A DNA stretch of 24,000 nucleotides from Geoglobus acetivorans. Lineage in GTDB: Archaea > Halobacteriota > Archaeoglobi > Archaeoglobales > Archaeoglobaceae. Below, one piece after another: positions 5,255 to 21,297 of this stretch. Position numbers and translations under genes: made by a program. Under the pieces are notes generated by a model. The model made no database searches. It saw only the letters and a program-made list of their open reading frames with translations, and was not told where the DNA came from. Numbering within the stretch: the first letter of the stretch is position 1; every line of letters begins with the position of its first letter. The stretch lies in assembly GCF_039641995.1 (NCBI RefSeq), contig NZ_CP087714.1, positions 1,654,328 to 1,678,327 of the forward strand, given 5' to 3'.

Positions 5255-5440
5255 CAGCATTAAACTGAGTCTTTTAGACAGCCTAAAACTCAGCTAAACT
5301 TGACCGTTTTGTGAACTACTCCGCCCTTACGGACGGAGCTTCCCGCTTCATCGAGAGAACTTGCCCCTCGATCACCTTCCGATATGGAATCACGAGGGAT
5401 AGAGACTCTCTCTCCACGGGCGTTCGGGACCGTCCCAGCC
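5255..5440 (-). ncRNA. candidate TnpB guide RNA (omega-RNA / reRNA) scaffold overlapping the tnpB 3' end
   Basis: On the - strand: GGGAC-G-GTCCC (5426-5436); ATCGAG…CTCGAT (5350-5372); an 8-bp stem with GUAA tetraloop and one U-G wobble, CTCCGTCC-GTAA-GGGCGGAG (5319-5338), spanning the last tnpB codons; and the extended hairpin CTGAGTTTTAG-GCTGT-CTAAAAGACTCAG (5265-5293). The exact ends and the guide are not determinable by eye. Confidence 0.35.
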
Positions 5441-6530
5441 CCACATCCAGTATGTTCAGGGAGGCGTTGTAATCTCTGTCAGCCTCCCATCCACAATTAG
5501 GACAGGCGAACGATCTATCTTTCAGGGATATGTTTTTAACAATGTAGCCACAGTTGGCACATCTTTTTGACGTATTTGTAGGATTAACTCTCACCACTCG
5601 CCTACCAGCTCTTTCAGCCTTGTAGACGAGCAGTGTATGGAATTTAGTCCATGCGGAATCGTGAATGTGCCTGTTCAGTGTTGGAGAGTTTCCATTTTCA
5701 ACCAAATCTTTCACATTCAGATCTTCAACGCAGATTATGTCATAGTTGTTGACATAATAACGAGACAACTTGTGCAAGAAATCCAGCCGCTGGTTGTTCA
5801 GCTTCTCGTAGAGTTTTGCCAGCTTGAGTCTGGCTTTCTCTCGCCTCTTCGACCCCTTCTGCTTTCTCGACAACTCTTTTTGAACCCTCTTTATCTTCTC
5901 AAGAGTTTTGTCAATGAATTTCGGATTCTCGAAAGCTATACCATCTGAATCTACGCAGAAGTGATTCACTCCCATGTCTAAACCAACTACTCTTCCCGTT
6001 TTTGGCAGTGATTTCGATTCTACTTCTGTTTGAACTATGGCGAACCACTTTTCGGTTTTAGTTTTCTTGACGATTACACCCTTGATTCTACCTTCAATCG
6101 GACGATGAAGCTTTATCGGAATTTCACCAATCTTGGATAGAACAAGCTTCTTTCTCTCAAAGTCAATCTTGAAACCTGACTGGTTGAAGTTTAGGGTTTT
6201 GAAAGAATTGGGAGAAGTCTTATAGCGAAGCCACCCAACTTTCTTCCCCTTCTTTCTCAGCTCGTTTAACGCTTTGATGTTTGACCAGAGCTGATAATTC
6301 ACCATCTGCAAAACTTTTGAGTAAACGTTCTTTAGCTCTGGTTTTTCTTGCTTAAGCCTCACGATAAGGGCTTGGGTATCTTTCCAACATATCTTTCTAC
6401 CCTCTTTTCTTGCCTTGTTTACTTCTTCAAGCAGCTTATTGTATAACCAGCGACATATCTCAAGCTGTTCATTTAGTTTTGCTTCAGATGTCTTCAAAGG
6501 ATAGATGCGGAATTTGTAGCTAATCAGCAT
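5316..6530 (-). CDS. tnpB: TnpB (IS200/IS605-family OrfB) RNA-guided RuvC nuclease, apparently intact
   Basis: 404 aa. N-terminus YKFRIYP, RuvC-I GLDMGV, RuvC-II ICVEDLNV, zinc finger CANCGY…CPNCGW, RuvC-III ADRDYNASLNI. No tnpA nearby. Confidence 0.9.
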   Translation of the reverse strand: MLISYKFRIYPLKTSEAKLNEQLEICRWLYNKLLEEVNKARKEGRKICWKDTQALIVRLKQEKPELKNVYSKVLQMVNYQLWSNIKALNELRKKGKKVGWLRYKTSPNSFKTLNFNQSGFKIDFERKKLVLSKIGEIPIKLHRPIEGRIKGVIVKKTKTEKWFAIVQTEVESKSLPKTGRVVGLDMGVNHFCVDSDGIAFENPKFIDKTLEKIKRVQKELSRKQKGSKRREKARLKLAKLYEKLNNQRLDFLHKLSRYYVNNYDIICVEDLNVKDLVENGNSPTLNRHIHDSAWTKFHTLLVYKAERAGRRVVRVNPTNTSKRCANCGYIVKNISLKDRSFACPNCGWEADRDYNASLNILDVGLGRSRTPVERESLSLVIPYRKVIEGQVLSMKREAPSVRAE

Positions 6531-6546
6531 CTTTTACACCAAAAAA

Positions 6547-6807
6547 TCATAAATTGTACTTTCTCTTGAACTTCTGAGCTCTCAGCGGAGCCATGTGTAT
6601 CATATCATCCAATCTGCCATAAATGTAGGACTCAACAGACTCAGTGATAACCTCTCCGATAAATCCATCTAATTTCTCCTCATCATAGCCTACCCACTTC
6701 CCATATTCTCTCAAGAACTCAACAAACCTCTTAGGCAGGGGTATTGACACCCTGACGAACTCCTCCCCCTCAATTATCACAGTCTGCTCCTCTTTCATCT
6801 CAATCAC
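6547..6807 (-). CDS. 86-aa cassette protein, possibly ribbon-helix-helix-like (copy 1)
   Basis: FVRVSIPLPKRFVEFLREYGKWVG looks like an RHH beta-strand plus helix. 85/86 aa are identical to 11674-11934. Its stop is 16 nt upstream of the tnpB ATG on the same strand, in an operon arrangement. Confidence 0.6.
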   Translation of the reverse strand: MIEMKEEQTVIIEGEEFVRVSIPLPKRFVEFLREYGKWVGYDEEKLDGFIGEVITESVESYIYGRLDDMIHMAPLRAQKFKRKYNL

Positions 6808-6818
6808 CTCCGAAAATT

Positions 6819-7013
6819 TTAGGAAAAAGCCTCGAGGACAGTTTGTCTTATTACAACCCTCTCCATTCCACCCTCAAAAACCAGCCAGCCCTTCTTAACC
6901 GGGAAGCTCTTAGAGAAGTCAAGTCGGGTCATTTTTGTTCCGCAAAGTGGACAAAGACCGCCGTTAACTCCCCAACCTTCATATCCGCATTTTGGACACA
7001 CCAACTCGGACAT
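6819..7013 (-). CDS. small Zn-ribbon protein (copy 1)
   Basis: CPKCG…x11…CPLCG zinc ribbon followed by a conserved C-terminal half (DFSKSFPVKKGWLVFEGGMERVVIRQTVLEAFS). I place the start at the ATG (complement of 7011-7013), which is preceded by GAGGTG; the track begins at a GTG at 7022. Confidence 0.6.
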   Translation of the reverse strand: MSELVCPKCGYEGWGVNGGLCPLCGTKMTRLDFSKSFPVKKGWLVFEGGMERVVIRQTVLEAFS

Positions 7014-7034
7014 TTTGGACACCTCTACTTTGTA

Positions 7035-7084
7035 GCTACATTGTAATTACATCAAAAGTTATTTAAACTTTTCGCTACATTGTA
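7035..7084. promoter_or_regulatory. divergent promoter of cassette 1 with two 11-nt direct repeats (putative operators) flanking a TATA box
   Basis: GCTACATTGTA at 7035-7045 and 7074-7084 (39 nt start to start) flank TTATTTAAAC (7059-7068). The palindromes GTAGCTAC and TGTAATTACA are also present. Confidence 0.5.
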
Positions 7085-7090
7085 GATACA

Positions 7091-7234
7091 ATGAAGCCCG
7101 CAAAAATAACTGTAGAAGGGTATGAAGTAATTGAGAAGGTCGTAAAAGATGCTGGGAATTCAGGTAGAGTCTATGTTCCAAAGTCTTGGGTTGGAAAGAG
7201 GGTTAAAATAATCTTGCTGGAGCCAAATGAATAA
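7091..7234 (+). CDS. DUF2080-like (AbrB/SpoVT-type) transposase-associated small protein (copy 1), 47 aa
   Basis: Below the ORF-track size cutoff; read directly from the sequence as MKPAKITVEGYEVIEKVVKDAGNSGRVYVPKSWVGKRVKIILLEPNE. The GNSGRVYVPKxWxGKxVK motif matches my memory of the archaeal DUF2080 family that accompanies tnpB. Confidence 0.6.
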   Translation: MKPAKITVEGYEVIEKVVKDAGNSGRVYVPKSWVGKRVKIILLEPNE

Positions 7235-7257
7235 AAGTGGAATCATCTGGAATTTTA

Positions 7258-7269
7258 TTTAATAAAGTC
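7258..7269 (+). promoter_or_regulatory. viral promoter motif variant TTTAATAAAGTC
   Basis: 18 nt to the ATG at 7288. Aligns with the motif at 12386-12396 at the right edge of the other cassette. Confidence 0.5.
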
Positions 7270-7287
7270 TGCTTCTGCCTTGCGATT

Positions 7288-10605: not shown

Positions 10606-11658
10606 TTAATTTTTAGTGATGGGGTTTATTATTTGGATGAAACGTAATACTTCTTTTTTTCCACCAAGCACCGTTAATACATGCTCTGGTTTTCTATTTC
10701 TTCTCGTATAAGTCTTGATTGACACTTTAAAGCCTAATTTTTCCAGTTGAGCTTTAATAAGTTTTAGCAGCTTTAAGTTAGTATTGTACATTTGAATGTT
10801 AGAATGGGCACGATGCCCTTCAGATTCATAAAAGCCTCGAATGAATTCTTTGCGAAAATCATCGTTTATGAGGTACTCAGTTTCGATTGTCTTTAAGTCT
10901 AAACTCTTATACCACTCGTAAAATTGTTTTGACCGAGCCCTTACATAATAGATCTTCTTCCAATTAGGTTTTTTAGGCTTAATTGTCTTCATATATGGTT
11001 TAAGACCAATTCTTCTCAAATTAACTACAAATTCATCTGCAAATTGTTTATCAATCACTTTTAATTGGATAAACCTATCTCCGTACTTCTTCGTGTGTCC
11101 CACATAACCATCACCGAATATGACTCCTAAAATATATGCTAACTCTTTAGAAGGTTTAAGATTTACATCTGCAACTCCACCAAGCTCACGAAGGGGGATG
11201 TGATATTTTTTAAGGTATTGTCTAATTGTTGTAGCACTACACCTGAATATTTTGGCACAATCTCTAACTGACAACTCTAAGTCCCAGTAGGCAGTAAATA
11301 GCAGATCTTGGGAGATATTAACACTGGCACACTTCTTTGAACAGAATTTTCCTTCTCCCCGCTTAACCCTATATGGAAAAATGTAGAATTCTTTACCACA
11401 TCCTTGGCAGATTCTTTTGATCTTGACACTTGTTTTTCTATCATAGTCCAACCGACACTCGTGTGAACAGAATTTTGCTTTATCTCTCCTGCTTTGCCAG
11501 ACTTCAAACTCTTTACCACAGTTCTGACAGATTTTATTAACTCTCTTACGTCTAAATTCGTAAAAACATCGTTTTGAACAAAATCTTCTCTTCTCAATTT
11601 TAGATGGTGGCACTTGAAACTCCTTCCTACAATTCAAGCATTTGACAGTTACAGGCAT
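10606..11658 (-). CDS. LAGLIDADG homing endonuclease with three N-terminal FCS/TRASH-type zinc fingers and an HTH
   Basis: Three repeats of C-x2-C-x16-18-(F)C-S-x2-C (CLNCRKEF…FCSKRC, CQNCGKEF…FCSHEC, CQGCGKEF…FCSKKC). HTH LSVRDCAKIFRCSATTIRQYLKKY. Two LAGLIDADG motifs (LAYILGVIFGDGYVG and EFIRGFYESEGH). Strongly AT-rich. Confidence 0.8.
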   Translation of the reverse strand: MPVTVKCLNCRKEFQVPPSKIEKRRFCSKRCFYEFRRKRVNKICQNCGKEFEVWQSRRDKAKFCSHECRLDYDRKTSVKIKRICQGCGKEFYIFPYRVKRGEGKFCSKKCASVNISQDLLFTAYWDLELSVRDCAKIFRCSATTIRQYLKKYHIPLRELGGVADVNLKPSKELAYILGVIFGDGYVGHTKKYGDRFIQLKVIDKQFADEFVVNLRRIGLKPYMKTIKPKKPNWKKIYYVRARSKQFYEWYKSLDLKTIETEYLINDDFRKEFIRGFYESEGHRAHSNIQMYNTNLKLLKLIKAQLEKLGFKVSIKTYTRRNRKPEHVLTVLGGKKEVLRFIQIINPITKN

Positions 11659-11673
11659 TCTATCACCAAAAAA

Positions 11674-11934
11674 TCATAAATTGTACTTTCTCTTGAACTT
11701 CTGAGCTCTCAGCGGAGCCATGTGTATCATATCATCCAATCTGCCATAAATGTAGGACTCAACAGACTCAGTGATAACCTCTCCGATAAATCCATCTAAT
11801 TTCTCCTCATCATAGCCTACCCACTTCCCATATTCTCTCAAGAACTCAACAAACCTCTTAGGCAGGGGTATTGACACCCTGACGAACTCCTCCCCCTCAA
11901 TTATCACAGTCTGCTCCTCTTCCATCTCAATCAC
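11674..11934 (-). CDS. 86-aa cassette protein, RHH-like (copy 2)
   Basis: Differs from copy 1 by a single residue (K5E). Its stop is 15 nt upstream of the LAGLIDADG ATG. Confidence 0.6.
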   Translation of the reverse strand: MIEMEEEQTVIIEGEEFVRVSIPLPKRFVEFLREYGKWVGYDEEKLDGFIGEVITESVESYIYGRLDDMIHMAPLRAQKFKRKYNL

Positions 11935-11945
11935 CTCCGAAAATT

Positions 11946-12134
11946 TTAGGAAAAAGCTTCGAGGACAGTCTGCCTTATCACAACCCTCTCCATTCCACCC
12001 TCAAAAACCAGCCAGCCCTTCTTAACCGGGAAGCTCTTAGAGAAGTCCACTTTATGCAGTTCTCCACCACACAGCGGGCACAGACCATTGCTCCCAGAAC
12101 CTTCATACCCACATCGGACACATTTCACGGGCAT
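11946..12134 (-). CDS. small Zn-ribbon protein (copy 2)
   Basis: MPVKCVRCGYEGSGSNGLCPLCGGELHKV followed by a C-terminal half identical to copy 1. ATG (complement of 12132-12134) is preceded by GAGGTG. Confidence 0.6.
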   Translation of the reverse strand: MPVKCVRCGYEGSGSNGLCPLCGGELHKVDFSKSFPVKKGWLVFEGGMERVVIRQTVLEAFS

Positions 12135-12160
12135 TTTTAACACCTCTTAGTTAGATTTTA

Positions 12161-12210
12161 GCTATAATATATTTAGAACATAAACTATTTAAACTTTTCG
12201 CTATAATATA
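12161..12210. promoter_or_regulatory. divergent promoter of cassette 2 with two 11-nt direct repeats flanking a TATA box
   Basis: GCTATAATATA at 12161-12171 and 12200-12210 (39 nt start to start) flank CTATTTAAAC. Same geometry as copy 1 but a different repeat sequence. Confidence 0.5.
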
Positions 12211-12215
12211 GCTAT

Positions 12216-12362
12216 ATGGCAGATCCGATTGAGGTAAAAGTTAAGGGATATGAAGTAATCGAGAAGGTCGTAAAACGGAGTGGGGATTCAGGTAGAGTCT
12301 ATGTTCCAAAGTCTTGGGTTGGGAAGAAAGTTAAGATAATACTATTAGAGCCAAATGAGTAA
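12216..12362 (+). CDS. DUF2080-like (AbrB/SpoVT-type) small protein (copy 2), 48 aa
   Basis: Read directly from the sequence: MADPIEVKVKGYEVIEKVVKRSGDSGRVYVPKSWVGKKVKIILLEPNE. Confidence 0.6.
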   Translation: MADPIEVKVKGYEVIEKVVKRSGDSGRVYVPKSWVGKKVKIILLEPNE

Positions 12363-12385
12363 GGTAAATCATCTGAAGTTTTTGA

Positions 12386-12396
12386 TTTTTAAAGTC
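12386..12396 (+). promoter_or_regulatory. viral promoter motif TTTTTAAAGTC
   Basis: 19 nt to the ATG at 12416. Confidence 0.55.
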
Positions 12397-12415
12397 TATT
12401 TGAAATCAAGCAGAT

Positions 12416-20968: not shown

Positions 20969-21003
20969 AAACTCATCAAACGGCTCAAATAACGAAAAGC
21001 TAT

Positions 21004-21086
21004 GCGGGGGGCGGGATTTGAACCCGCGGACCCCTCCGGGACAGGGTCTTAAGCCCTGCGCCTTTTCCTGGCTCGGCAACCCCCGC
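21004..21086 (-). tRNA. tRNA-Leu (anticodon UAA), class II with long variable arm; no encoded CCA
   Basis: The reverse complement folds by hand. Acceptor GCGGGGG/CCCCCGC. D arm GCC…GGC. Anticodon stem CAGGG/CCCTG with loop CTTAAGA. Variable arm CCCGGAGGG. T arm GCGGG-TTCAAAT-CCCGC. Confidence 0.9.
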
Positions 21087-21297
21087 AGCGGAAATGGCGA
21101 CCAATTGCCGATCAATGGAGCTCCCGGCTGATTTGCAGTTTTCAGCTGTATTGGCTTGCGCGTGTGCGCTGAAGGTCAATAGCCTAGACCTGTGAAGTAC
21201 TTATGAAGTTTGTGGTAATGCTGAGACTGGACAGTGTTGTTAGTAGCCTTATCTGGCAGAATTGAGGGACAGATTTTTGGAAAAATAATATGAAGCA

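What the first reader, a model, noticed from the sequence alone, without database searches (positions are those of the whole stretch)
7035..7084. Co-varying 11-nt operator-like direct repeats in the divergent promoters of the two cassettes
In copy 1, GCTACATTGTA occurs twice (7035 and 7074). In copy 2, GCTATAATATA occurs twice (12161 and 12200). In both copies the repeats are exactly 39 nt apart and flank the conserved TATTTAAACTTTTC TATA region, with the downstream repeat ending 5-6 nt before the DUF2080 ATG. The two repeat versions differ at the same 3 of 11 positions in both members of each pair, so each cassette keeps an internally consistent but distinct site. The adjacent DNA-binding candidates (Zn-ribbon N-terminus and DUF2080 N-terminus) diverge over the same interval. 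This suggests copy-specific autoregulation with matched protein and operator specificities, which would avoid cross-talk between cassettes in one genome.
Basis: seen in the sequence. Interest (0 to 1): 0.7.

Follow-up and report, generated by a model that had tools for sequence, protein, structure and literature searches.

The report
Matched operator sites for DUF2080 regulators
The repeated 11-base words are real, and they are most likely binding sites for the tiny DUF2080 protein encoded beside them, an uncharacterised regulator found on archaeal mobile elements; each of the two cassettes carries its own matching version of protein and site.

Summary
GCTACATTGTA lies at 7035 and 7074 and GCTATAATATA at 12161 and 12200, each pair 39 nt apart, against 0.01 matches expected by chance.

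Each 11-mer is one period of a larger element, a 17-bp palindrome with consensus TAGCTA-CATTG-TAGCTA. Among 158 unique DUF2080 loci from many archaeal phyla, 91 carry this palindrome. It usually sits between a TATA-like box and an apparently leaderless DUF2080 start codon. None of 144 control windows has it.

The C/T and G/A difference between the two cassettes tracks one loop residue of DUF2080, G-N-S-G-R in copy 1 and G-D-S-G-R in copy 2. All D, T or S variants have T..A operators, including an independent D lineage. The Zn-ribbon protein is not the specificity partner: the same Zn-ribbon N-terminus occurs with three unrelated repeat types when the small regulator is swapped.

Most likely DUF2080 is an AbrB/MazE-like repressor. 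It would sit on both sides of one shared BRE-TATA-BRE core and shut off both itself and the divergent Zn-ribbon/86-aa/nuclease operon (TnpB or LAGLIDADG).

No binding has been shown, and insulation between the cassettes is inferred. This is an ordinary mechanism applied to a family that has no described function.

The parts
7033..7049 (.). Copy 1 operator O1, TAGCTACATTGTAATTA.
   Evidence: It matches the 17-mer family consensus with 2 mismatches. It is listed as a site at -50 from the ATG.
7022..7038 (.). Additional upstream 11-bp unit of copy 1, CCTCTACTTTGTAGCTA. It overlaps the Zn-ribbon Shine-Dalgarno sequence (AGAGGTG on the minus strand, 7026-7020).
   Evidence: Site at -61. Sequence read.
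7054..7073 (.). Shared core promoter, AAAAGT-TATTTAAA-CTTTTC. It is a quasi-palindromic BRE/TATA/BRE, with the TATA box at 7060-7067.
   Evidence: Conserved in both cassettes. In the family logo a purine run and an AT-rich block lie 14-27 nt upstream of the operator centre. P. furiosus provides a precedent for transcription in both directions from one TATA box.
7072..7088 (.). Copy 1 operator O2, TCGCTACATTGTAGATA. It contains the second 11-mer (7074-7084), lies between the TATA box and the DUF2080 ATG, and ends 2 nt before that ATG.
   Evidence: Its position matches the family-wide architecture.
7091..7234 (+). DUF2080 gene of copy 1 (47 aa). The loop is G22-N23-S24-G25-R26, with the Asn codon at 7157-7159. 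This is the proposed operator-binding repressor. No Shine-Dalgarno sequence precedes the ATG.
   Evidence: Pfam PF09853 at E = 1e-9. NCBIfam NF033496 at E = 2e-19. 100% identical to a Geoglobus acetivorans protein. Loop-versus-operator table.
6819..7013 (-). Zn-ribbon protein of copy 1 (64 aa from the ATG at 7013, preceded by AGAGGTG). It is the first gene of the divergent operon.
   Evidence: The 64-aa form matches an NCBI protein at 100% identity and coverage. Only weak Zn-ribbon Pfam hits.
6547..6807 (-). 86-aa protein of copy 1, the second gene of the divergent operon. It is 99% identical to its copy 2 counterpart.
   Evidence: The family is rare, with 4 homologues and 7 representatives. 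AF2 model at pLDDT 83.5 with a beta-alpha-alpha pattern.
5316..6530 (-). TnpB RNA-guided nuclease (404 aa), the third gene of the copy 1 divergent operon.
   Evidence: Pfam OrfB_IS605 and Cas12f1-like_TNB. NCBIfam guided_TnpB at E = 1e-92.
12159..12175 (.). Copy 2 operator O1, TAGCTATAATATATTTA. It contains the 11-mer at 12161-12171.
12148..12164 (.). Additional upstream 11-bp unit of copy 2, TAGTTAGATTTTAGCTA.
12186..12199 (.). Copy 2 TATA box TATTTAAA (12186-12193) followed by CTTTTC.
12198..12214 (.). Copy 2 operator O2, TCGCTATAATATAGCTA. It contains the 11-mer at 12200-12210 and ends 1 nt before the ATG.
   Evidence: One mismatch to the degenerate consensus. The same type occurs in L004, L085, L087 and L175-178.
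12216..12362 (+). DUF2080 gene of copy 2 (48 aa). The loop is G23-D24-S25-G26-R27, with the Asp codon at 12285-12287.
   Evidence: Pfam PF09853 at E = 3.5e-8 and a weak MazE_antitoxin hit. NCBIfam hit.
11946..12134 (-). Zn-ribbon protein of copy 2 (62 aa from the ATG after AGAGGTG).
   Evidence: the homologue P0036 is 62 aa.
11674..11934 (-). 86-aa protein of copy 2.
10606..11658 (-). LAGLIDADG homing-endonuclease-like protein with N-terminal zinc fingers and an HTH (350 aa). It is the third gene of the copy 2 divergent operon.
   Evidence: Pfam LAGLIDADG_3 at E = 3e-17.

Best explanation
Each cassette has a compact two-way archaeal promoter. One quasi-symmetric BRE-TATA-BRE core (AAAAGT-TATTTAAA-CTTTTC) is flanked by two operators, each built from TAGCTA-like hexamers repeated every 11 bp.

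The 47-48 aa DUF2080 protein encoded on the plus side is proposed to be a small AbrB/MazE-like DNA-binding protein that binds these operators as an oligomer.
- O2 lies between the TATA box and the leaderless DUF2080 start. Binding there would block RNA polymerase recruitment and so autoregulate DUF2080.
- O1 lies at the predicted start site of the divergent Zn-ribbon/86-aa/nuclease operon. Binding there would keep the TnpB or LAGLIDADG nuclease switched off once DUF2080 has accumulated.

The two cassettes carry two natural specificity types. Asn in the G-x-S-G-R loop goes with C:G at positions +/-2 from the operator centre. Asp goes with T:A. Each DUF2080 would therefore prefer its own promoter.

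Shown here: the anatomy, the family-wide conservation, the position relative to the TATA box and ATG, and the protein/site covariation. Inferred: binding itself, repression, the transcription start sites, and insulation between the cassettes.
For: (1) The motif belongs to DUF2080 rather than to its neighbours. In 91 of 158 unique DUF2080 loci a 17-bp palindrome lies within 55 nt of the ATG, and it ends within 5 nt of the ATG in about 80 of the 91. These loci come from DPANN archaea, methanogens, Archaeoglobales, Bathyarchaeia and Marsarchaeota. None of 144 control windows has it.

(2) The neighbouring genes vary. They are IS66 transposases downstream (43 loci), DDE transposases divergent upstream (28 loci), a TdeIII restriction enzyme with a methylase, a Fic/Doc toxin, and viral genes.

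(3) When sequences are anchored on the operator, a purine run lies at -27..-24 and an AT-rich box at -21..-14, and the ATG begins about 10-14 nt downstream of the operator centre. The site therefore fills the gap between TATA and start. Neither window DUF2080 ATG is preceded by a Shine-Dalgarno sequence, while all minus-strand genes have GGTG.

(4) Covariation:
- GDSGR proteins have T..A at positions 7 and 11 of their best operator in 5 of 5 loci in the first set. L175-178 add another case.
- L131 is a D variant nested among 88-89%-identical N-type proteins whose operators carry C at position 7, and it has T..A.
- GTSGG, GTSGR and GSSGR lineages also have T..A.
- GNSGR proteins mostly have C..G.
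- All GNSAR proteins have GTTAC..GTAAC.
- At the level of 75%-identity clusters, 5 of 6 non-Asn sub-lineages are not C..G, against 5 of 19 Asn sub-lineages (Fisher p = 0.02).

(5) The loop aligns with the AbrB DNA-contact loop. hhalign pairs DUF2080 17-33 with AbrB 6-22 (P = 3.8e-4), and 13 of 28 members weakly hit Pfam MazE_antitoxin.

(6) Regulator swapping. Where DUF2080 is replaced by an AbrB-type or a possibly RHH-type protein next to the same Zn-ribbon/86-aa operon, the intergenic repeats change too.

(7) The closest relatives keep both sites at 39 nt (L004, L085, L087, L173/174, L175-178).

(8) Transcription in both directions from one BRE-TATA-BRE core, with start sites about 49-50 bp apart, has been demonstrated in Pyrococcus furiosus (PMC6640164).
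Against: - No binding or expression data exist.
- The AbrB/MazE relationship is weak. hhalign probability is 36% over 17 columns. The Pfam MazE hits fall below the cutoff. The AF2 monomer has pLDDT 72 and no Foldseek match.
- Naive mutual information is dominated by phylogeny. The lineage-level test rests on few independent events.
- Some Asn-type proteins sit next to T..A or hybrid sites (17 TA, 28 TG and 15 CA of 168 sites). Asn may therefore tolerate both, which would make insulation incomplete.
- Across all multi-site loci, sites in the same locus do not share the variant more often than random pairs (0.33 against 0.34, with loose site calling).
- Sixty-seven of 158 loci lack a good proximal palindrome.
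- O1 and O2 are not in helical phase, so cooperative looping is not evident.
- The exact consensus 17-mer also occurs in 23 viral contigs without DUF2080.
Confidence: 0.6

Rival explanations
1. The sites are operators, but another cassette protein binds them: the Zn-ribbon protein, or the 86-aa protein, whose model looks ribbon-helix-helix-like.
For: The Zn-ribbon N-terminus diverges over the same block as the repeats. The 86-aa model has a beta-alpha-alpha pattern at pLDDT 83.5. A natural fusion of a Zn-ribbon to the 86-aa family shows that the two proteins work together.
Against: The Zn-ribbon N-terminus of L001 and L209 is almost identical to window copy 2, but their repeats are CTTTAC and TCTACTATA. 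The 86-aa proteins of the two cassettes differ by one residue while the sites differ at 3 of 11 positions. Both proteins are rare, with 3-7 homologues, whereas the motif accompanies DUF2080 in about 90 loci that lack them. The 86-aa model has no Foldseek support.
Confidence: 0.08
2. The repeats are core-promoter or initiator sequence read by the basal machinery or a host factor. They are conserved because the promoter moves with the gene, and no dedicated repressor is involved.
For: They surround the TATA box and the predicted start sites. The copy 2 version is itself TATA-like. In several methanogen loci a hexamer doubles as the TATA box.
Against: A strict two-fold symmetric 17-mer conserved across archaeal phyla is not expected for initiator elements. 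The site variants track a DUF2080 loop residue. The repeats are replaced when the regulator gene is replaced, although the TATA core stays.
Confidence: 0.12
3. The palindromes are recombination or transposition sites: transposase binding sites, element ends, or nuclease homing sites.
For: DUF2080 is annotated as transposase-associated. It directly precedes IS66 transposases in 43 loci, where the motif lies about 95 nt inside the presumed left end. The window cassettes carry TnpB or a homing endonuclease.
Against: The motif keeps its position between the TATA box and the ATG in loci with no transposase, namely restriction-modification, Doc and viral contexts. It lies internal to the cassette homology, not at its boundaries, which are at about 6537/7275 and 11664/12400. 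The transposase families differ while the motif stays the same.
Confidence: 0.07
4. The palindromes act as RNA hairpins in the 5' leaders, for example to control translation or stability.
For: Inverted symmetry could form stems. The copy 1 O2 region folds at -4.2 kcal/mol with z = -2.3.
Against: The predicted structures are weak or absent at 37 C (-4.3, -2.7 and 0 kcal/mol, with z-scores not significant). The host is, from my own knowledge, a hyperthermophile. O2 lies upstream of the predicted start of a leaderless mRNA. An 11-bp hexamer periodicity suits binding along one face of DNA better than an RNA stem.
Confidence: 0.03

Closest known systems
AbrB/MazE/SpoVT-type (swapped-hairpin) antitoxins and transition-state regulators that autoregulate through palindromic operators
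   Same: A very small protein with a G-x-S-x-R-V-x-V/I-P motif that aligns to the AbrB/MazE DNA-contact loop. It is encoded at the head of operons for harmful genes, such as Doc in L004 and a restriction enzyme in L083. Its sites overlap its own promoter. In L001 a bona fide AbrB-family protein occupies the same position. A DUF2080-labelled domain was validated as an antitoxin in bacteria (PMC10440598).
   Different: Membership of the fold is not established. The protein is shorter than AbrB-N or MazE. In the window there is no co-transcribed toxin, and the putatively controlled nuclease operon is divergent. The promoter is an archaeal TATA/BRE type with a leaderless gene.
Controller (C) proteins of restriction-modification systems and their C-boxes
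   Same: A small regulator gene directly upstream of the nuclease gene and divergent from the methylase (L083/L084). It has paired symmetric operators at its own promoter. Specificity classes among C proteins cause or avoid cross-talk between co-resident systems; this last point is from my own knowledge.
   Different: C proteins are Xre-type helix-turn-helix proteins, which DUF2080 is not. In the window the controlled genes are TnpB or LAGLIDADG, not a restriction enzyme.
Archaeal repressors that bind between the TATA box and the start site and block RNA polymerase recruitment (for example MDR1, LrpA and Phr; from my own knowledge)
   Same: O2 occupies the gap between the TATA box and the predicted start.
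   Different: Those are wHTH, Lrp or ArsR-type proteins encoded by the host chromosome. This one is a 47-aa protein carried by mobile elements.
Bidirectional BRE-TATA-BRE promoters of Pyrococcus furiosus (PMC6640164)
   Same: One symmetric TTTAAA-type TATA box with purine-rich flanks on both sides. The published distance between the two start sites, about 49-50 bp, fits the leaderless ATG at 7091 and a minus-strand start near 7041, inside O1.
   Different: In P. furiosus the second transcript is mostly non-functional antisense RNA. Here both directions would serve real operons and carry operators. The start sites here are not mapped.
Small transposon-encoded repressors (for example IS1 InsA; from my own knowledge)
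   Same: A small protein encoded just upstream of the transposase, and co-transcribed with it in 43 DPANN loci, with a site in the element's own promoter.
   Different: InsA binds the terminal inverted repeats. Here the site is internal, at the promoter, and the same module also serves elements that are not insertion sequences.

Membership tests
DUF2080 (Pfam PF09853 / NCBIfam NF033496, 'transposase-associated protein') | Profile match above the curated cutoff | tested here: met
   Pfam gives 38.5 and 33.5 bits against a cutoff of 21.5. NCBIfam gives 69 and 67.8 bits against a cutoff of 22.
DUF2080 promoter-operator module (defined here) | A 17-bp palindrome of TAGCTA-CATTG-TAGCTA type between a TATA-like box and the DUF2080 ATG | tested here: met
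   Window O2 sites at 7072-7088 and 12198-12214. The architecture occurs in 91 of 158 loci against 0 of 144 controls.
AbrB/MazE/SpoVT swapped-hairpin superfamily | Significant sequence or profile similarity to the SpoVT-AbrB domain | tested here: inconclusive
   hhalign gives 17 aligned columns, P = 3.8e-4 and probability 36%. Pfam MazE_antitoxin is weakly hit by 13 of 28 members, best E = 0.0045, below the cutoff. No hit in the PDB sequence search.
AbrB/MazE/SpoVT swapped-hairpin superfamily | Interdigitated beta-barrel dimer fold | tested here: inconclusive
   The AF2 monomer has pLDDT 72 and two strands. Foldseek against the PDB gives nothing below E = 1. A dimer could not be modelled with these tools.
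AbrB/MazE/SpoVT swapped-hairpin superfamily | Sequence-specific DNA binding through loop arginines | not testable with these tools
   There is only indirect covariation between the loop residue and operator positions 7 and 11.
Type II toxin-antitoxin module | Toxin gene co-transcribed with the small DNA-binding antitoxin | tested here: not met
   In the window the genes after DUF2080 are small ORFs with hydrophobic stretches and no family match, and viral neck or tail-chaperone-position ORFs. The feature is met in relative L004, which has Fic/Doc downstream.
Restriction-modification controller (C) protein | Xre-type HTH protein upstream of the restriction gene | tested here: not met
   No HTH family hit and no restriction gene in the window. 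The positional analogy holds only in L083/L084, which have RE_TdeIII downstream.
Bidirectional BRE-TATA-BRE archaeal promoter | Symmetric TATA box with purine-rich BRE-like flanks on both strands | tested here: met
   AAAAGT-TATTTAAA-CTTTTC at 7054-7073, read directly and conserved in copy 2 and relatives.
Bidirectional BRE-TATA-BRE archaeal promoter | Two start sites about 50 bp apart arising from one TATA box | not testable with these tools
   This needs dRNA-seq or primer extension. The only indirect evidence is that DUF2080 lacks a Shine-Dalgarno sequence while the Zn-ribbon gene has one.
IS200/IS605-type TnpB element (copy 1 neighbour) | TnpB protein profile | tested here: met
   NCBIfam guided_TnpB at 311 bits against a cutoff of 100.
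IS200/IS605-type TnpB element (copy 1 neighbour) | Recognisable omega-RNA, TnpA gene or hairpin ends | tested here: not met
   Rfam finds only a tRNA in the window. No TnpA gene is present. Cassette homology runs up to a Shine-Dalgarno sequence 5-9 nt before the TnpB ATG, which leaves no room for a left end.

The most novel reading that the evidence does not exclude
DUF2080 would be a previously uncharacterised, pan-archaeal family of roughly 47-aa controller repressors carried by insertion sequences, restriction-modification systems, toxin modules and viruses. It would have a simple readable recognition code: Asn versus Asp, Thr or Ser in the G-x-S-G-R loop selects C:G versus T:A at operator positions +/-2. 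Natural orthogonal repressor/operator pairs would then exist. Two such pairs would co-reside in one Geoglobus provirus, separately gating a TnpB operon and a LAGLIDADG nuclease operon from single-TATA two-way promoters.
Probability: 0.3. Interest if true: 0.6.

Novelty: new member of a known kind. Interest (0 to 1): 0.45.

Why it matters
The finding gives a domain of unknown function a concrete, testable role. That family is annotated only as 'transposase-associated', and I found no paper on its function.

It supplies four things for experiments:
- a consensus operator;
- the operator's position in an archaeal core promoter;
- a candidate specificity residue;
- two natural variants side by side in one genome.

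If confirmed, it would explain how many archaeal insertion sequences, restriction-modification systems and viral selfish cassettes keep their transposase or nuclease genes in check. It would also provide very small orthogonal repressor/operator pairs for hyperthermophilic archaea.

The mechanism itself, a small autorepressor on palindromes over its own promoter, is textbook. A specialist would find this useful rather than surprising.

Tried and rejected
- **Structure route for DUF2080.** The AF2 monomer had pLDDT 72. Foldseek against the PDB and a PDB profile search gave nothing usable.
- **Naive mutual information between protein columns and operator positions.** It was dominated by clade structure, so I replaced it with residue tables and cluster-level counts.
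- **TnpB as the general 'associated transposase'.** phmmer with the window TnpB found none next to the other DUF2080 loci. The partners are IS66 and other DDE transposases.
- **Exclusivity of the exact consensus 17-mer.** It occurs in 23 IMG/VR contigs, none near DUF2080. These fall into a few phage groups, and the count is probably near chance, so the result is not informative.
- **RNA hairpin reading.** Predicted folds are weak.
- **86-aa protein.** An exhaustive search found only 7 representatives. The AF2 model is decent, but Foldseek gives no match, so the RHH-like reading is by eye only.
- **Within-locus concordance of site variants across the whole family.** It was no better than random with loose site calling. 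The 'both members co-vary' pattern is clean only in the Archaeoglobales clade.
- **Sigma-70 promoter and terminator scan.** It does not apply to an archaeon.
Full report
**Observation.** GCTACATTGTA lies at 7035 and 7074, and GCTATAATATA at 12161 and 12200. Each pair is 39 nt apart and flanks the conserved TATTTAAACTTTTC. The downstream copies end 6 and 5 nt before the DUF2080 ATGs at 7091 and 12216. The degenerate pattern GCTAYAWTRTA occurs nowhere else in the 24 kb window, against 0.01 matches expected.

The two cassettes (about 6537-7275 and 11664-12400) form a mosaic. About 390 nt covering the 86-aa gene and the Zn-ribbon C-terminus are 99% identical. A diverged block follows, covering the Zn-ribbon N-terminus, the intergenic region and the first half of DUF2080. 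After that identity is about 82-85%.

**Context.** The window comes from Geoglobus acetivorans, because its proteins match that organism's at 100%. It is the structural module of a tailed provirus, with protease, major capsid, neck, tail tube and tape-measure genes. A tRNA-Leu lies near 21 kb.

Both cassettes are inserted among these plus-strand genes. On the minus strand each has a three-gene operon, and every gene in it has a GGTG Shine-Dalgarno sequence:
- a Zn-ribbon protein;
- an 86-aa protein;
- a nuclease, which is TnpB in copy 1 and a LAGLIDADG protein with zinc fingers in copy 2.

On the plus side each cassette has a 47-48 aa DUF2080 gene with no Shine-Dalgarno sequence.

**What the repeats are.** I collected 170 DUF2080 loci from genomes, metagenomes and viral contigs. 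I added more through exact-protein look-ups.

In most of these loci the DUF2080 ATG is directly preceded by a 17-bp palindrome with consensus TAGCTA-CATTG-TAGCTA. Ninety-one of 158 unique loci have such a site within 55 nt of the ATG, usually ending within 5 nt of it. None of 144 control windows taken 142-200 nt upstream has one.

TAGCTA-like hexamers recur every 11 bp, and 11 nt is by far the commonest distance between sites. Two near-identical loci, L179 and L181, differ by exactly one 11-nt unit.

Re-read in this way, the window has these sites:
- O1 at 7033-7049 and 12159-12175;
- a further upstream unit at 7022-7038 and 12148-12164;
- O2 at 7072-7088 and 12198-12214.

Two of the three differences between the cassette versions are the symmetric partners of one half-site base pair. 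The third is the centre of symmetry.

**Position in the promoter.** I anchored 83 loci on the operator centre. A purine run then appears at -27..-24 and an AT-rich TATA-like block at -21..-14. The ATG begins about 10-14 nt downstream of the centre. The operator therefore fills the space between the TATA box and a start site at or next to the ATG, which implies a leaderless mRNA. The window fits this pattern: the TATA centre is at 7063.5 and the O2 centre at 7080.

The core AAAAGT-TATTTAAA-CTTTTC is nearly its own reverse complement. In Pyrococcus furiosus, one BRE-TATA-BRE element was shown to fire in both directions, with start sites 49-50 bp apart (PMC6640164). Applied here, the minus-strand start falls near 7037-7041, inside O1. 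That would leave a leader of about 22 nt carrying the Zn-ribbon Shine-Dalgarno sequence. The start sites are inferred, not mapped.

**Which protein goes with the sites.** The motif follows DUF2080 whatever the neighbouring genes are:
- IS66 transposases immediately downstream (43 loci);
- DDE transposases divergent upstream (28 loci);
- a TdeIII restriction enzyme with a divergent methylase (L083/L084);
- a Fic/Doc toxin (L004);
- DNA methylases;
- viral tail genes (L174).

The converse also holds. The Zn-ribbon/86-aa operon (or its Zn-ribbon-less 66-aa/84-aa counterpart in L206-208) also occurs opposite other small regulators: an AbrB-family protein in L001/L002 and a weakly RHH-matching protein in L206-208, with a similar 56-aa one in L209. 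The intergenic repeats change with the regulator, to CTTTAC/GTAAAG and to TCTACTA(A/T)A respectively. The Zn-ribbon N-terminus of L001 and L209 nevertheless stays almost identical to window copy 2.

The 86-aa proteins of the two window cassettes differ by one residue. Neither the Zn-ribbon nor the 86-aa protein can therefore explain cassette-specific sites.

**Covariation.** DUF2080 copy 1 has the loop G-N-S-G-R (N23). Copy 2 has G-D-S-G-R (D24).

Across the family the loop residue tracks the operator:
- Every GDSGR protein has T..A at operator positions 7 and 11. This group includes window copy 2, L004, L085, L087, L175-178 and L131. L131 arose independently among 88-89%-identical Asn-type DPANN proteins whose operators carry C at position 7.
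- The GTSGG, GTSGR and GSSGR lineages also have T..A.
- GNSGR proteins mostly have C..G (98 of 168 sites).
- All GNSAR proteins have GTTAC..GTAAC.

At the level of 75%-identity clusters, 5 of 6 non-Asn sub-lineages are not C..G, against 5 of 19 Asn sub-lineages (Fisher p = 0.02).

The association is not perfect. Some Asn proteins sit beside T..A or hybrid sites, so Asn may accept both. Family-wide, secondary sites are heterogeneous.

The window's two intergenic regions belong to two pre-existing lineages. Copy 1 resembles L173 and copy 2 resembles L087/L175. The cassettes therefore did not diverge in place. Instead the left flank has been homogenised between two distinct regulator/operator alleles.

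**What kind of protein.** The loop region aligns with the AbrB DNA-contact loop. DUF2080 17-33 (VVKDAGNSGRVYVPKSW) pairs with AbrB 6-22 (IVRKVDELGRVVIPIEL) at hhalign P = 3.8e-4 and probability 36%. Thirteen of 28 members weakly hit Pfam MazE_antitoxin, which is the only recurrent secondary family. A bona fide AbrB protein occupies the same position in L001.

The fold itself could not be confirmed. I found no paper on DUF2080 function. The few mentions concern an antitoxin domain and a CalpT domain in bacteria.

**Mechanism proposed.** DUF2080 binds the hexamer arrays on both sides of the shared TATA box as an oligomer.
- At O2 it would block polymerase recruitment at its own leaderless promoter.
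- At O1 it would block the divergent Zn-ribbon/86-aa/nuclease operon.

This is the logic of antitoxins, restriction-modification controller proteins and transposon repressors. The dangerous gene gets a burst of expression on arrival in a new cell and is then shut off. The Asn/C:G and Asp/T:A pairs would let the two cassettes be regulated separately.

Binding, the sign of regulation and insulation between the cassettes are all inferred. I put the overall explanation at about 0.6.

**Rivals.**
- Binding by the Zn-ribbon or 86-aa protein (0.08).
- Plain core-promoter sequence with no dedicated repressor (0.12).
- Transposition or homing sites (0.07).
- RNA hairpins (0.03). Folds are at most -4.3 kcal/mol at 37 C, in what is, from my own knowledge, a hyperthermophile.

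**Verdict.** The operator idea and the matched protein/site idea gain real comparative support. The partner, however, is DUF2080's loop rather than its N-terminus or the Zn-ribbon, the motif is family-wide, and the 39-nt spacing is specific to the closest clade.

I classify it as a new member of a known kind of system. It is useful because it assigns a testable function, an operator and a candidate specificity residue to a DUF family. It is not mechanistically surprising.

Noticed in passing
window 6528-6549 and 11656-11676: TnpB (copy 1) and a LAGLIDADG/zinc-finger protein (copy 2) occupy exactly the same slot. Cassette homology runs through a shared GGTG Shine-Dalgarno sequence and stops 5-9 nt before each nuclease ATG. 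It looks as if whole nuclease ORFs were exchanged behind a common Zn-ribbon/86-aa leader operon.
   Followed up: partly
L001/L002, L173/L174, L206-L209 (relatives of window 5316-7022): The Zn-ribbon/86-aa(/TnpB) operon recurs in other archaeal viruses and metagenome contigs. Its divergent small regulator is swapped between DUF2080, an AbrB-family protein and a weakly RHH-matching protein, and each comes with its own repeat type in the intergenic region.
   Followed up: yes
P0043 (homologue of window 6547-6807): One homologue is a natural fusion of a CxxC...CxxC Zn-ribbon to the 86-aa family. This suggests the two small proteins of the divergent operon act together.
   Followed up: no
window 6547-6807 and 11674-11934: The 86-aa protein belongs to a very rare family, with 7 representatives among 1.8 billion proteins. 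Its AF2 model (pLDDT 83.5) has a strand-helix-long helix-helix layout that looks ribbon-helix-helix-like by eye, but it has no Foldseek match in the PDB.
   Followed up: partly
L179 versus L181, about 60-90 nt upstream of DUF2080: Two otherwise identical metagenome loci differ by exactly one extra 11-nt unit (TAGTTACATTG) in the upstream operator array. The copy number of the unit therefore varies in nature.
   Followed up: no
window 21002-21087 (-): A tRNA-Leu(TAA) gene sits just after the viral structural module. It is a probable provirus attachment region.
   Followed up: no
window 7245-7275 and 12375-12400: A conserved T-rich block (AATCATCTGRA..TTTTT..TAAAGTCT) follows each DUF2080 stop codon and marks the right end of cassette homology. 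It could be an oligo-T terminator or a promoter for the downstream viral genes.
   Followed up: no
L183-L205 (IMG/VR contigs): The exact consensus TAGCTACWTTGTAGCTA occurs in 23 viral contigs with no DUF2080 gene nearby. L190 and L194 carry 3-4 tandem 11-nt units of it, so another protein may use a similar site there.
   Followed up: partly
L015, L024, L026, L027, L034 and others, about 95 nt upstream of DUF2080: DPANN loci share a GTATTTGTTTAGCTRATTT block. This is probably the left inverted repeat of the IS66-like element. It contains one TAGCTA-type hexamer, so DUF2080 might also touch the element end.
   Followed up: no
L182 (P0025, loop G-T-S-G-R): This relative has quite different upstream repeats (TTATGA / ATGATTATAAT) in place of the TAGCTA-type palindrome. 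It may represent a further specificity class.
   Followed up: no
L163 (the other G. acetivorans provirus): A DUF2080 gene has a replaced N-terminus (MPEQFFPDPLY...) and no upstream operator or TATA box. It looks like a decayed or captured copy.
   Followed up: no
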